Shown here: one piece after another, positions 4,752 through 7,261 of the stretch | Layout: each line of letters begins with the position of its first letter | Position numbering within the stretch: the first letter of the stretch is position 1 | DNA from: a virus | Lineage: Duplodnaviria; Heunggongvirae; Uroviricota; Caudoviricetes | Virus record (IMG/VR): IMGVR_UViG_2693429728_000003 | Location: 1 to 8,482 of that record | DNA length: 8,482 nt | Reading direction: 5' to 3' (one strand) | Translations under genes and position numbers: made by a program | Notes under the pieces: generated by a model | The model's input: only the letters and a program-made list of their open reading frames with translations | Databases searched by the model: none | Told to the model about the DNA's origin: nothing

Positions 4752-5145
4752 AGCGGTGCCTTATGTCCGCAATAACCCGGACAAACTGCATCTGTTTGTG
4801 GATAACGGTTCGCTGGTTGCCACGGGGGCCAGCTCCATGTCGTGGGAGTACCGTTACACCCTGAACGCGGTGATTGAGGATTTCAGCGGCGACCAGAATC
4901 TGCTGATGGCCCCGGTTTTGCTGTGGCTGCGGGATAACCAGCCCGATGCCATCAATAACCCGGCGTTACGGGAAAAGTTATTCACCTTTGAGGTGGATAT
5001 TCTGCGCAATGATGTCTGTGATATCAGCCTGAACCTGCAACTGACGGAGCGTGTGCTGGTCAGCACTGACGGCAGTGTGTCGAGCGTTGAAGCGATAACG
5101 GAACCCGATGAACCTGAAGAAATGTGGACGGTGAAACGTGGCTGA
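4714..5145 (+). CDS. R: Tail completion protein gpR
   Basis: Recalled similarity to P2 gpR (LHLFVDNGS, RYTLNAVIEDFSGD, PVLLWLRDNQPD, SLNLQLTERVLVS). Preferred start is GTG 4714, preceded by AGGAG (4702-4706) at 7-nt spacing; the track start at 4693 is a TTG without an RBS. Confidence 0.83.
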   Translation: MNKPQSLRHALNKAVPYVRNNPDKLHLFVDNGSLVATGASSMSWEYRYTLNAVIEDFSGDQNLLMAPVLLWLRDNQPDAINNPALREKLFTFEVDILRNDVCDISLNLQLTERVLVSTDGSVSSVEAITEPDEPEEMWTVKRG

Positions 5146-5581
5146 ATTGCAGAAAGTGGACGACTGGCTGAGTGCCTTACTGGCGAATCTGGAGCCAGCT
5201 GCAAGAAGTCGCATGATGCGCCAACTGGCACAGGAGCTGCGCCGGACACAGCAGCAAAACATCAGGATGCAGCGCAATCCAGATGGCAGCAGCTATGAAC
5301 CTCGACGGGTAACAGCACGCAGTAAAAAGGGGCGCATCAAACGTCAGATGTTTGCAAAGCTGCGCACCACAAAATACCTGAAAACTGCAGCTAGCGCCGA
5401 TTCTGCCAGCGTGCAGTTTGAAGGTAAGGTGCAGCACATTGCCCGTGTTCACCATTACGGCCTGCGTGATCGCGTCAGTCGAAAAGGTATTTATACCATC
5501 TATGCGAAAAGGCAGTTATTAGGTTTTAATGTCCAATCTATTGAGTTAATTGAAAGAATGTTCATTAAAAACCTAACTTGA
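5138..5581 (+). CDS. S: Tail completion protein gpS
   Basis: 147-aa ORF overlapping the R stop by 8 nt, GTG start with GGTG 4 nt upstream. Recalled similarity to P2 gpS (DDWLSALLANLEPAAR, QNIRMQRNPDGSSYEPR, IARVHHYGLRDRVSR). The last ~25 codons lie in AT-rich DNA (see findings). Confidence 0.83.
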   Translation: MAELQKVDDWLSALLANLEPAARSRMMRQLAQELRRTQQQNIRMQRNPDGSSYEPRRVTARSKKGRIKRQMFAKLRTTKYLKTAASADSASVQFEGKVQHIARVHHYGLRDRVSRKGIYTIYAKRQLLGFNVQSIELIERMFIKNLT

Positions 5582-5584
5582 TTT

Positions 5585-6604
5585 TTATTTGTTTTCAATT
5601 GAGTTAGATATAGATAGGAATGTGTCCCCTATTTCTATAGATAGTTGTTTAATTAAATTCATGAAAATTAAATTCTCTTCGTTGCAGTCATTTTTCAGTA
5701 GACAGCACGTTGATTGAGTAAGACTAAGGGCTGTAGCATGTGCAGGGTCAACTAATCCGAAATTACTTGGACCTATGTTGATGACGTTCTTCAGGTGATG
5801 GGGTAGTGACAAGCTATTAGTGATTGTTTTTATATTTACATGGATGTTTTGGCATGCCCATTTAAAATATGGGCGCATGTGATCTAATTTAACTTCTTTT
5901 TCAATTGATTTAAAGCTAGCTTTGTGTTTCTTATCAGTTAAAAATGGTGTGGCCCAACCATATTGCGAATCAAAACTTCTGCCATATGTTTTAATGGCTT
6001 TATCGAACAAGTCTGTTAATTCTCTGGCCTCTTCATTACTGGGCCCTTTCTCTTGAAGCCTGCTTTCATACTTTTTATGAGACATCATTAGATAATAGCT
6101 ATCATAAATTTCATGTGCTAAAAATATTTCTGAGCATTTAGGACCATGCTTGTCGATGAAATGTAGTGTTACATTTGTTTCATGCAGTGCTCTCCATCTT
6201 GCATGGGCTGCGTCAGGAAATCCATTTTTTAATAGACATAAAATCTCGTTAGAAATTGCACATGCCTTTGCGTGTAATCTAATTAGTAATTGCAAATGGT
6301 TGTTTGTGTCGGTGTCTTTATCTTGTTGTAAGCTTGTACTATATTTAGAACCTTGATTAATACATAACTCTAACAACAACTCTAATAATCCAAAACCATC
6401 TCTCCAAATATTAATATGTCTTTTTATGAAATTTTGATGTTCTTGTTCATTTTGGGCCAGTAATTCTGCTTTTTTTTCTTTAAATTCCAATATGTATTCA
6501 TTTGCTTTGAAGTCTATGAACTCCCAGTATAGCTTTTCAAAATTTTCTCTGGTTGCATCGGGAAGACTGTTTTTATTTGAGCTTAACCATTCTTTAAAAT
6601 CCAT
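5585..6604 (-). CDS. Hypothetical protein encoded in the AT-rich S-V island; candidate moron (possible defense or superinfection-exclusion function)
   Basis: Single uninterrupted 339-aa reverse-strand ORF that fills the AT-rich island. Start ATG (reverse complement of 6602-6604) preceded by AGGGGG about 6 nt upstream on the minus strand. No TM segments or Walker motif; predicted largely helical. Contains an R-x4-H motif (RWRALH, aa 136-141). I recognise no family from sequence alone. Confidence 0.78.
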   Translation of the reverse strand: MDFKEWLSSNKNSLPDATRENFEKLYWEFIDFKANEYILEFKEKKAELLAQNEQEHQNFIKRHINIWRDGFGLLELLLELCINQGSKYSTSLQQDKDTDTNNHLQLLIRLHAKACAISNEILCLLKNGFPDAAHARWRALHETNVTLHFIDKHGPKCSEIFLAHEIYDSYYLMMSHKKYESRLQEKGPSNEEARELTDLFDKAIKTYGRSFDSQYGWATPFLTDKKHKASFKSIEKEVKLDHMRPYFKWACQNIHVNIKTITNSLSLPHHLKNVINIGPSNFGLVDPAHATALSLTQSTCCLLKNDCNEENLIFMNLIKQLSIEIGDTFLSISNSIENK

Positions 6605-6618
6605 TGTGTTCCCCTATT

Positions 6619-6636
6619 TGTACCATGTTTTATACA
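6619..6636 (+). promoter_or_regulatory. TGT-N12-ACA dyad, candidate Ogr/Delta-type activator site of the V late promoter
   Basis: Exact TGT(6619-6621)-N12-ACA(6634-6636) in the 78-bp gap upstream of V, where P2 places late promoter PV. P2-family late promoters carry such a dyad centred near -55. Geometry is imperfect: centre 6627.5 would put the TSS at or just inside the annotated V start. Confidence 0.3.
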
Positions 6637-6650
6637 ACGAACTGTAAGCG

Positions 6651-6679
6651 ATTATATGGTTTTTTTCATTCATATTTAA
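6651..6679 (-). promoter_or_regulatory. Candidate sigma70-type promoter for the island ORF
   Basis: On the minus strand, a perfect TATAAT (reverse complement of 6651-6656) with TTAAAT 17 nt upstream (reverse complement of 6674-6679). Predicted TSS near 6644, giving a ~40-nt leader to the ATG at 6604. Confidence 0.35.
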
Positions 6680-6682
6680 TAT

Positions 6683-7261
6683 ATGGACAAAAATCTAACA
6701 GAAATCATGCGCCTTATCACCAACCTGATCCGCACTGGTGTAGTCACCGAAGTGGACCGGGAGAACTGGCTTTGCCGGGTGAAAACGGGCGAGCTTGAAA
6801 CTAACTGGATCAGTTGGCTGACGCTGCGTGCCGGGAATGCCAGGACATGGTGGCGACCATCGGAAGGTGAACAGGTGGTGCTGCTGAGTCTGGGCGGCAA
6901 TCTGGAAACCGCCTTTGCGTTACCCGCCATCTATTCGAATCAGTTCGCGCCACCGTCGACGTCGGCGGACGCCTGCGTGACAGAACATCCTGACGGTGGC
7001 TGGTTTGAATACGAACCCGCCACCGGGCGCTGGTATGTCAGGGGCATCAAATCAATGGTCATTGAGGCCGCTGACAACATCACCATGAAAACCAGTGAGT
7101 TTGTACTGGAGGCTGACCGCACGCGCATTAACAGTGAAGTGGTGATCAATGGTGGCGTTACCCAGGGCGGCGGAGCGATGAGTTCTAACGGGATCGTGGT
7201 TGATGCGCATCAGCATACTGGCGTCCTGAAAGGCGGCGATACAACCGGAGGCCCGGTATGA
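6683..7261 (+). CDS. V: Baseplate spike/assembly protein gpV
   Basis: 192-aa ORF with recalled similarity to P2 gpV (NLIRTGVVTEVD, RAGNARTWWRPSEGEQV, ETAFALPAIYS, glycine-rich C-terminus HQHTGV). No clear SD before ATG 6683; in-frame ATG at 6707 is an alternative start. Confidence 0.85.
   Translation: MDKNLTEIMRLITNLIRTGVVTEVDRENWLCRVKTGELETNWISWLTLRAGNARTWWRPSEGEQVVLLSLGGNLETAFALPAIYSNQFAPPSTSADACVTEHPDGGWFEYEPATGRWYVRGIKSMVIEAADNITMKTSEFVLEADRTRINSEVVINGGVTQGGGAMSSNGIVVDAHQHTGVLKGGDTTGGPV

What the first reader, a model, noticed from the sequence alone, without database searches (positions are those of the whole stretch)
6605..6682. Compact divergent control region: island promoter back-to-back with the putative V late promoter
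The 78-bp gap holds, on the minus strand, a perfect TATAAT (6651-6656) with a weak -35 (TTAAAT, 6674-6679) reading into the island ORF. On the + strand it holds an exact TGT-N12-ACA dyad (6619-6636) of the kind bound by Ogr/Delta-family late activators. The island promoter would fire through the activator site and the V promoter region, so island expression in the lysogen and late-gene activation may interfere. The dyad position relative to the V start is not ideal, so the V start or promoter assignment is uncertain.
Basis: partly seen in the sequence, partly recalled or inferred. Interest (0 to 1): 0.45.

Follow-up and report, generated by a model that had tools for sequence, protein, structure and literature searches.

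The report
P2-type late promoter beside cargo gene
This 78-bp gap is the ordinary late promoter of the baseplate operon of a P2-like prophage: an activator-binding dyad, a weak -10, and transcription starting right on the start codon of gene V. It sits inside a swappable cargo cassette whose own promoter must overlap it but cannot be pinned down from sequence.

Summary

**The dyad is real.** TGT-N12-ACA (6619-6636) is the Ogr/Delta-type activator site of the late promoter PV. In 15 versions of the S-V region, 14 of them essentially unrelated in sequence, an exact dyad lies 54.5-56.5 bp upstream of the V ATG (55.5 bp in 11, including the window). A at -11 and T at -7 are invariant, and no version has a Shine-Dalgarno sequence.

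**The spacing is canonical, not "not ideal".** The phage P2 record annotates the same arrangement: site centre 55.5 bp from a transcription start placed on the A of the V ATG, which makes V a leaderless mRNA. It also shows a minus-strand cargo gene (orf30) in the same position.

**The proposed cargo promoter is unproven.**
- TTAAAT-17-TATAAT is plausible, but 42% of shuffles score as well.
- Two other candidates in the window score equally.
- It is absent from two diverged cassettes carrying the same cargo family.

Geometry still forces the cargo promoter to overlap PV, so mutual interference is a reasonable but untested idea.

**Verdict:** a new member of a known kind, of modest interest.

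The parts
6619..6636 (+). TGT-N12-ACA dyad (TGTACCATGTTTTATACA), the binding site for the Ogr/Delta-family late activator of promoter PV. Its centre is at 6627.5, 55.5 bp upstream of the V ATG.
   Evidence: Exact and unique in the window. The same element at the same distance is present in 15/15 versions of the region. The P2 record annotates the equivalent 'activator binding site; activation of pV promoter'. In the near-identical prophage, 3 of 5 such dyads lie at the P/O, V and FI promoters.
6671..6676 (+). PV -10 hexamer CATATT (-12..-7 relative to the V ATG). It is a weak -10 of the form [C/A/T]ANNNT. There is no -35 match (GCGATT at 6648-6653).
   Evidence: A at -11 and T at -7 are invariant in 15/15 versions aligned on the V ATG. 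PF of the same prophage has CAACAT at the same distance from its dyad.
6683..6683 (+). Predicted PV transcription start: the A of the V start codon, giving a leaderless V mRNA.
   Evidence: Inferred from the dyad and -10 spacing. The P2 record places the V-operon TSS on the first base of the V CDS. P2 is cited as a source of leaderless mRNAs in PMC4633059, citing Christie & Calendar 1985. No version has a Shine-Dalgarno sequence, and all use ATG.
6683..7261 (+). Gene V (baseplate spike, 192 aa), first gene of the V-W-J late operon.
   Evidence: Pfam Phage_base_V plus the GpV Apex motif. PGAP uses the same start in E. coli genomes. Codons 2-7 vary mostly synonymously between cassettes.
6651..6656 (-). 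It lies at PV positions -32..-27. The predicted TSS is about 6643-6645, giving a leader of about 40 nt that contains the dyad.
   Evidence: Present, and the only TATAAT in the window. It is not above chance. It is not conserved in the diverged DUF5677 cassettes L089 and L091.
6674..6679 (-). It overlaps the PV -10.
   Evidence: PWM score 6.3.
6641..6669 (-). Alternative cargo promoter candidate: ATGAAA (6664-6669), 17-bp spacer, TACAGT (6641-6646).
   Evidence: PWM score 6.8. Not conserved.
6692..6720 (-). Alternative cargo promoter candidate inside the V 5' coding sequence: GTGATA (6715-6720), 17-bp spacer, TAGATT (6692-6697). The TSS would fall near the V ATG on the opposite strand.
   Evidence: PWM score 6.8. 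The same position holds TAGATT or TAAATT in L089 and L091. That conservation is confounded by V coding constraint.
6610..6615 (-). Shine-Dalgarno sequence (AGGGGA) of the cargo gene. It lies only 3 bp from the left edge of the dyad.
5585..6604 (-). Cargo gene, 339 aa, DUF5677 family, in an AT-rich stretch (GC about 0.28-0.39).
   Evidence: Pfam PF18928 at 1.8e-28; phrog_27456; no PADLOC or NCBIfam hit; composition.
5485..6700 (.). Approximate extent of the variable cassette. It runs from about codon 117 of S to codon 6 of V, so it includes a recoded S 3' end, the cargo gene, the whole PV promoter and the first V codons.
   Evidence: Alignments against island-free and other cassettes. The cassette is present in 4 of 5426 E. 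coli genomes and absent from 63 of 80 close viral loci.

Best explanation
The 78-bp gap is the PV late promoter of a P2-like (Peduoviridae) prophage. It is carried inside a horizontally exchanged cassette at the S-V position, the position that orf30 occupies in phage P2.

How PV works:
- During lytic growth the phage's Ogr/Delta-type zinc-finger activator binds the TGT-N12-ACA dyad (6619-6636), centred at -55.5.
- It recruits sigma-70 RNA polymerase to a promoter with only a weak -10 (CATATT, 6671-6676) and no -35.
- Transcription starts on the A of the V ATG (6683), so V is translated from a leaderless mRNA.

How the cargo gene fits in:
- The DUF5677 cargo gene is read in the opposite direction.
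- Its Shine-Dalgarno sequence abuts the dyad, so its promoter must lie on the V side of the dyad. That places it inside the stretch covered by polymerase at PV.
In that case the activator site lies at +9..+26 of the cargo transcript.
- The two promoters would then be mutually exclusive, and Ogr binding together with PV firing should shut the cargo gene off late in infection.

Status of each step:
- Shown here: the elements, their spacing and their conservation.
- Taken from the P2 record and the literature: activator dependence and TSS = ATG.
- Inferred: the position of the cargo promoter and the interference.
For: Dyad:
- Exact and unique in the window.
- All 15 versions of the S-V upstream region carry an exact dyad centred 54.5-56.5 bp from the V ATG, 11 of them at 55.5.
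- Their spacers are essentially unrelated: mean pairwise identity 0.34 against 0.27 expected, with one related pair.

-10 element and V start:
- A-11 and T-7 are invariant 15/15.
- No version has a Shine-Dalgarno sequence before V, and all use ATG.
- Changes in V codons 2-7 are mostly synonymous.

P2 record:
- PV activator site centre to TSS is 55.5 bp, the TSS is the first base of V, and orf30 lies on the minus strand.
- PO, PP and PF have site-to-TSS distances of 55-59 bp.
- P2 is cited as a leaderless example.

Near-identical prophage:
- It has an ogr/Delta-like gene.
- Dyads lie at the P/O and FI promoters, with CAACAT at -12..-7 of the predicted PF start.

No RNA element:
- No Rfam hit and no RNA structure in the gap (z 0.11 and 0.44), so a DNA-level protein site is the better reading.

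Cargo geometry:
- Cargo starts lie 5-45 nt left of the dyad in 13 cassettes, and all cargo genes examined are on the minus strand.
Against: - No transcription start was measured for this element. TSS = ATG rests on the P2 annotation and on spacing.
- P2 itself has an imperfect site (TGT-N11-ACA, centre 57), and 186 and PSP3 keep only the TGT half, so the exact dyad is not universal in the family.
- The activator gene is not in the window.
- The cargo promoter assignment is weak. It is not above chance, is not listed by the consensus scan, and has two equal-scoring rivals.
- The TATAAT is replaced by AATGAA and GCAGAG (plus-strand reading) in the two diverged DUF5677 cassettes.
- Whether the cargo gene is expressed in lysogens is unknown.
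Confidence: 0.8

Rival explanations
1. The cargo gene is transcribed from a promoter inside the V 5' coding sequence: -35 GTGATA at 6715-6720 and -10 TAGATT at 6692-6697. The start would be near the V ATG on the opposite strand, giving an ~80-nt leader that spans the whole PV promoter.
For:
- It is the only candidate whose position is kept in the two diverged DUF5677 cassettes, as TAGATT and TAAATT.
- The -10 lies in the cassette-specific V codons (MDKNLTEI against MNAQLTEI elsewhere).
Against: - The conservation is confounded by V coding constraint and shared ancestry.
- It matches only 8/12 consensus positions.
- The score is reached by a third of shuffles.
Confidence: 0.2
2. The cargo gene uses ATGAAA (6664-6669), 17-bp spacer, TACAGT (6641-6646), starting inside the right half of the dyad (about 6634).
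For: - PWM score 6.8.
- L089 has a TAAAAT one base away from the equivalent position.
Against: Not above chance, and L091 has no -10-like hexamer there.
Confidence: 0.12
3. The cargo gene has no dedicated active promoter in the lysogen. It would be silent, for example through H-NS-type silencing of AT-rich DNA, or expressed only under special conditions. The TATAAT would be a chance feature of AT-rich DNA.
For: - The sigma-70 match is at chance level.
- The region is 28-31% GC.
- No promoter is conserved among homologous cassettes.
Against: - Every one of the 14 cargo-carrying versions has a compact gap of 70-110 bp and almost always a good Shine-Dalgarno sequence. That argues for expressed genes needing a nearby promoter.
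- The TATAAT is the only one in 8.5 kb.
Confidence: 0.15
4. V really starts at the second ATG (6707). PV would then make a short leader, and the dyad-to-ATG spacing would be coincidental.
For: An in-frame ATG exists at 6707. Leaderless genes are rare in E. coli.
Against: - There is no Shine-Dalgarno sequence before 6707 either.
- Codons 2-7 change mostly synonymously across cassettes.
- All versions begin with ATG exactly 55.5 +/- 1 bp from the dyad and 11 bp from the invariant A.
- The P2 annotation agrees.
Confidence: 0.04
5. The dyad is a chance palindrome or an RNA hairpin or terminator for the upstream O operon, not an activator site.
For: One match in 8.5 kb is no more than shuffles give. 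In island-free relatives the dyad is an 8-bp-arm palindrome right after the S stop.
Against: - Only TGT and ACA and their spacing are conserved across the versions.
- In the window the arms pair for only 4 bp, and the RNA fold is no better than shuffles.
- There is no T-run.
- The positional conservation has a chance probability of about 9e-4 per version.
Confidence: 0.02

Closest known systems
Phage P2 late promoter PV with the divergent orf30 gene (NC_001895: activator site 10239-10266, TSS 10308 = V start, orf30 on the complement strand at 9439-10224)
   Same: - The gene order S, minus-strand AT-rich cargo, activator site, V is the same.
- The distance from site centre to V ATG is the same (55.5 bp).
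- Neither has a Shine-Dalgarno sequence before V.
- Both have a weak CANNNT -10.
- The gap between cargo start and V start is similar (83 bp in P2, 78 bp here).
   Different: - The sequences are unrelated apart from the functional bases.
- P2's site is TGT-N11-ACA, and its -10 sits one base further upstream.
- The cargo is different (orf30 against DUF5677).
- P2 has an annotated terminator after S, and this window has none.
Ogr/Delta/B-dependent late promoters of P2, P4, 186 and PSP3 (consensus TGT-N12-ACA near -55; Christie & Calendar 1985 and Julien & Calendar 1995, as cited in PMC3931495)
   Same: - A dyad of the consensus form lies at about -55.
- There is no -35 and only a poor -10.
- The element sits in front of a late operon.
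- An activator gene is present in the near-identical prophage.
   Different: Activator dependence was not tested here. 186 and PSP3 keep only a TGT half-site at this position.
Leaderless mRNAs of mobile elements in E. coli (lambda cI, P2 gene V, Tn1721 tetR)
   Same: The predicted transcript starts with AUG. There is no Shine-Dalgarno sequence, and ATG is used in all 15 versions.
   Different: The 5' end was not measured for this phage.
Overlapping divergent (bidirectional) bacterial promoters in horizontally acquired AT-rich DNA (Warman et al., bioRxiv 10.1101/2020.01.31.928960)
   Same: - Two oppositely oriented promoters share one polymerase-sized stretch of AT-rich acquired DNA.
- In 6 of 15 cassettes the PV -10 is symmetrical (CANNNTA), the arrangement that paper describes for starts 18 bp apart.
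   Different: - In this window the PV -10 is not symmetrical (CATATTT).
- One partner here is activator-dependent.
P2 Z/fun locus upstream of PF
   Same: A minus-strand lysogenic-conversion gene sits directly upstream of a late promoter with its own activator site.
   Different: The gap there is about 290 bp, so the promoters need not overlap.

Membership tests
P2-family Ogr/Delta-dependent late promoter | Hyphenated dyad TGT-N12-ACA | tested here: met
   Exact match at 6619-6636.
P2-family Ogr/Delta-dependent late promoter | Dyad centred about 55 bp upstream of the transcription start | tested here: met
   - The centre is 55.5 bp from the V ATG and 44.5 bp from the invariant A of the -10.
- This equals the annotated P2 PV site-to-TSS distance and is close to PO, PP and PF (55-59 bp).
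- The start itself is inferred, not measured.
P2-family Ogr/Delta-dependent late promoter | Weak sigma-70 -10 and no recognisable -35 | tested here: met
   CATATT lies at -12..-7, with A-11 and T-7 invariant in 15/15 versions. GCGATT at -35..-30 matches TTGACA at 2/6 positions.
P2-family Ogr/Delta-dependent late promoter | Sits in front of a late morphogenetic operon of a P2-like phage | tested here: met
   V, W and J follow. The upstream genes are the P2-order head and lysis genes and R and S.
P2-family Ogr/Delta-dependent late promoter | Cognate Ogr/Delta zinc-finger activator encoded by the phage | tested here: met
   The activator gene is not in the window. The prophage in E. coli MINF_1D, 99.7% identical over the cassette (window 5480-6720), encodes an ogr/Delta-like zinc finger family protein after gene D.
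P2-family Ogr/Delta-dependent late promoter | Transcription depends on the activator | not testable with these tools
   Needs reporter or in vitro transcription assays.
Leaderless mRNA | 5' end of the transcript is the A of the AUG | not testable with these tools
   Predicted from spacing and from the P2 annotation. No RNA data are available.
Leaderless mRNA | No Shine-Dalgarno sequence, and an AUG start codon (not GUG or UUG) | tested here: met
   TCATATTTAATAT precedes the ATG. None of the 15 versions has a Shine-Dalgarno sequence at a functional distance, and all start with ATG.
   TATAAT matches 6/6 and TTAAAT 3/6, with a 17-bp spacer.
   42% of shuffles score as high, two rivals score 6.8 against 6.3, and the consensus scan did not list it.
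   L089 and L091 (cargo 52-54% identical, same locus) have AATGAA and GCAGAG at the aligned position on the plus strand.
   No RNA data are available.
Moron / cargo cassette at the P2 S-V (orf30) position | Variable, AT-rich insert between conserved S and V, present or absent among close relatives, and read opposite to the late genes | tested here: met
   - GC is 0.28-0.39 against 0.54-0.60 in the flanks.
- The insert is absent in 63 of 80 close loci and replaced by other cargo in 17.
- All cargo genes are on the minus strand.
- P2 orf30 shows the same arrangement.

The most novel reading that the evidence does not exclude
Every cassette that occupies the S-V site carries its own complete leaderless PV promoter and packs the cargo gene's promoter and 5' leader into the same ~80 bp. 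The late activator would then do two jobs from one site. It would switch on the baseplate operon, and, by roadblock and promoter occlusion, it would switch off a lysogen-expressed cargo gene. That cargo is here a HEPN-like DUF5677 protein and possibly an abortive-infection toxin. The effect would be to protect the phage's own lytic cycle from its cargo.
Probability: 0.2. Interest if true: 0.55.

Novelty: new member of a known kind. Interest (0 to 1): 0.27.

Why it matters
**Annotation.**
- The result settles this locus: the V start is 6683, PV is canonical, and V is predicted to be leaderless.

**Promoter constraint.**
- The 15 versions act as a natural mutagenesis of an Ogr-dependent promoter.
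- In ~70 bp only TGT, ACA, their spacing, A-11, T-7 and the ATG are held.
- That supports leaderless expression of V well beyond P2 itself.

**Cargo control.**
- If the overlap with the cargo promoter has a function, it would be a simple way for prophage cargo genes to be tied to the lysogeny/lysis decision.
- That would matter for how defence genes carried in P2-like hotspots are controlled.
- This part is untested.

Tried and rejected
**Consensus scan.** It found no terminator between S and V.

**RNA element.** There was no Rfam match in the whole window. RNA folds of the gap on both strands were no better than shuffles, so an RNA element was rejected.

**Conserved cargo promoter.**
- PWM scans across 12, then 3, then 15 cassettes gave no common minus-strand element.
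- The one exception coincides with the PV -10 in 6 cassettes, which is explained by the invariant A-11 and T-7 plus an A at -6.

**More copies of this cassette.**
- A distant BLAST against phage records found nothing.
- The viral-contig scan found one identical copy.
- The E. coli genomes gave four copies at 99.4% identity or more.
- These copies are too similar for footprinting.

**A non-P2 context.** A 48% homologue in a lambdoid prophage has an unrelated 229-bp upstream region, so it was no help in locating the promoter.

**Primary literature.** The primary P2 promoter papers (PMC177091, PMC107552) are not in the library. I relied instead on the P2 GenBank annotation and secondary citations.

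**Cargo function.**
- PADLOC and NCBIfam gave no hits, and the PDB sequence search gave no meaningful match.
- The one paper that tested a DUF5677 gene, from a Gram-positive bacterium, did not list it among its active defence genes.

Full report
**What is in the sequence.**
The window is the late region of a P2-like (Peduoviridae) prophage. It holds the head and lysis genes, R, S (5138-5581), a minus-strand ORF of 339 aa (5585-6604), then V (6683-7261) and W.

The stretch 5500-6700 is 27-39% GC, against 54-60% in the flanks.

- TGT(6619-6621)-N12-ACA(6634-6636);
- on the minus strand, TATAAT (6656->6651) and TTAAAT (6679->6674), 17 bp apart.

**Is the dyad more than chance?**
Not on count alone. 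One match is found in the window where shuffles give 2.2. The case is comparative.

Close relatives mostly lack the insert, so S is followed almost directly by V. Others carry different inserts.

I collected 80 viral loci with a V protein at least 96% identical. Of these, 63 are island-free and 17 carry nine other cassettes. I then added:
- two cassettes whose cargo is 52-54% identical to the one here, at the same S-V site in Salmonella and Enterobacter prophages;
- two more from phage records.

That gives 15 versions of the region upstream of V. Their spacers between dyad and -10 are essentially unrelated. Mean pairwise identity is 0.34 against 0.27 expected, and only one pair is related.

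All 15 have an exact TGT-N12-ACA centred 54.5-56.5 bp upstream of the V ATG, and 11 of them, including the window, are at 55.5. The chance of this is about 9e-4 per version.

That test is therefore passed.

**Where PV starts.**
I aligned the 15 versions on the V ATG. A at -11 and T at -7 are invariant in all 15. These are the two key bases of a sigma-70 -10 hexamer. In the window the hexamer is CATATT (6671-6676).

No version has a Shine-Dalgarno sequence before V, and all start with ATG.

Codons 2-7 of V differ between cassettes mostly by synonymous changes: GAC/GAT, AAA/AAG, CTA/TTA/CTC/CTG and ACC/ACA/ACG/ACT. These codons are therefore translated, and 6683 is the real start.

The phage P2 record annotates the same arrangement:
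- an 'activator binding site; activation of pV promoter' centred 55.5 bp before a 'transcription start site for V operon';
- that start lies on the first base of the V CDS;
- the nonessential orf30 lies on the minus strand between S and V.

The other P2 late promoters have site-to-start distances of 55-59 bp. P2 is cited as one of the few sources of leaderless mRNAs in E. coli, with Christie & Calendar 1985 as the reference (PMC4633059).

**Support from the same prophage.**
A prophage in E. coli MINF_1D is 99.7% identical over the cassette region (window 5480-6720). It encodes an ogr/Delta-like zinc-finger protein after gene D.

Of the five TGT-N12-ACA matches in its 26 kb, three lie at the P/O, V and FI promoter positions. 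Applying the same +55.5 rule to the FI site predicts:
- a start with CAACAT at -12..-7;
- a 30-nt leader with a good Shine-Dalgarno sequence.

More distant phages keep near-equivalents:

| Phage | Element at the PV position |
|---|---|
| P2 | TGT-N11-ACA, centre 57 |
| a Yersinia phage | N11 spacer, centre 56 |
| an Aeromonas phage | N13 spacer, centre 56 |
| 186 and PSP3 | only the TGT half-site |

**No RNA element.**
There is no Rfam match, and the gap folds no better than shuffles on either strand. Only TGT, ACA and their spacing are conserved, not hairpin potential. A DNA-level protein-binding site fits best.

**The cargo promoter.**
It is the only TATAAT on either strand of the 8.5-kb window. 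Even so, it is not distinguishable from chance:
- the consensus scan did not list it;
- 42% of shuffles give an equal or better candidate, and 20% contain a perfect TATAAT;
- two other candidates score 6.8 against its 6.3:
  - ATGAAA-17-TACAGT (6664-6669 / 6641-6646);
  - GTGATA-17-TAGATT (6715-6720 / 6692-6697), which lies inside V.

In the alignment of the three DUF5677 cassettes, the dyad, the cargo Shine-Dalgarno sequence, the PV -10 and the V codons are conserved, but the TATAAT is not. The V-internal candidate is positionally conserved, although coding constraint confounds that.

The geometry is firm. The cargo Shine-Dalgarno sequence (6610-6615) is 3 bp from the dyad. In 13 cassettes the cargo start lies 5-45 nt left of the dyad. 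Any cargo promoter must therefore overlap the dyad, the PV core or the first V codons.

- the two starts are about 39 bp apart;
- its -35 overlaps the PV -10;
- its -10 sits at PV -32..-27;
- the activator site lies at +9..+26 of the cargo transcript.

Mutual exclusion and shut-off of the cargo gene by Ogr and PV are therefore plausible, but they are inference only.

**The cassette.**
Comparison with island-free and other cassettes places the breakpoints at about 5485 (S codon ~117) and about 6700 (V codon 6). The cassette therefore carries:
- a recoded AT-rich S 3' end;
- the cargo gene;
- a complete PV promoter;
- the first V codons (MDKNLTEI in DUF5677 cassettes, MNAQLTEI elsewhere).

This exact cassette is rare: it occurs in 4 of 5426 complete E. 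coli genomes.

All cargo genes at this site are on the minus strand and AT-rich, as is P2 orf30.

Recent hotspot surveys of P2-like phages focus on the old/tin and Z/fun loci. They mention tail-region sites only briefly.

**Comparison and verdict.**
The element behaves like the P2 PV late promoter and passes every membership test that sequence can address. Activator dependence and the RNA 5' end cannot be tested here.

The finding is a new member of a known kind. The useful outcomes are a corrected reading (canonical spacing, leaderless V, start at 6683) and a comparative picture of how few bases an Ogr-type promoter needs. The interference idea remains open.

Noticed in passing
L097:5316-5391 (E. 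coli MINF_1D prophage, outside the window): The same +/-55.5 rule applied to the shared P/O activator site predicts the leftward PP start exactly on the annotated ATG of the terminase ATPase gene (5327). There is no Shine-Dalgarno sequence, and -12..-7 reads TAGGTT. This would be a second possibly leaderless late gene in this lineage; P2 has a 23-nt leader there. A second TGT-N12-ACA is centred near that ATG (centre 5324.5).
   Followed up: partly
window 5485-5600: The last ~32 codons of S are cassette-specific and AT-rich, yet still encode an S C-terminus. The S stop (5581) and the cargo stop (5585) are 3 bp apart, and no terminator was detected, unlike P2. Late O-operon transcription probably runs antisense through the cargo gene into PV.
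   Followed up: partly
[not shown]
   Followed up: partly
L094:2501-3532: A 48%-identical DUF5677 homologue sits in a lambdoid Klebsiella prophage, between the replication gene P and dinI, with an unrelated upstream region. The family therefore moves between cargo sites of different phage types.
   Followed up: no
L089, L091, L002, L057, L053, L065 (position -12..-6 before V): In 6 of 15 cassettes the PV -10 reads CANNNTA. The bottom strand then carries a proper TANNNT sharing the same A/T pairs, which is the symmetrical arrangement reported for bidirectional promoters with starts 18 bp apart. In the two diverged DUF5677 cassettes this bottom-strand hexamer reads TAAAAT and TAAAGT. The window itself lacks the symmetry.
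   Followed up: partly
window 6683-6700: The first V codons differ by cassette: MDKNLTEI or MDRNLTEI with DUF5677 cargo, MNAQLTEI (variants MNVQLTEI, MNTQLTEI) with all other cargo or none. Cassette exchange therefore recombines inside the V coding sequence.
   Followed up: yes
L101:1492-1495 (Klebsiella phage ST16-OXA48phi5.4): In this more distant P2-like phage, S and V overlap by 4 bp, with no intergenic region and no dyad. It therefore appears to lack a separate PV promoter.
   Followed up: no
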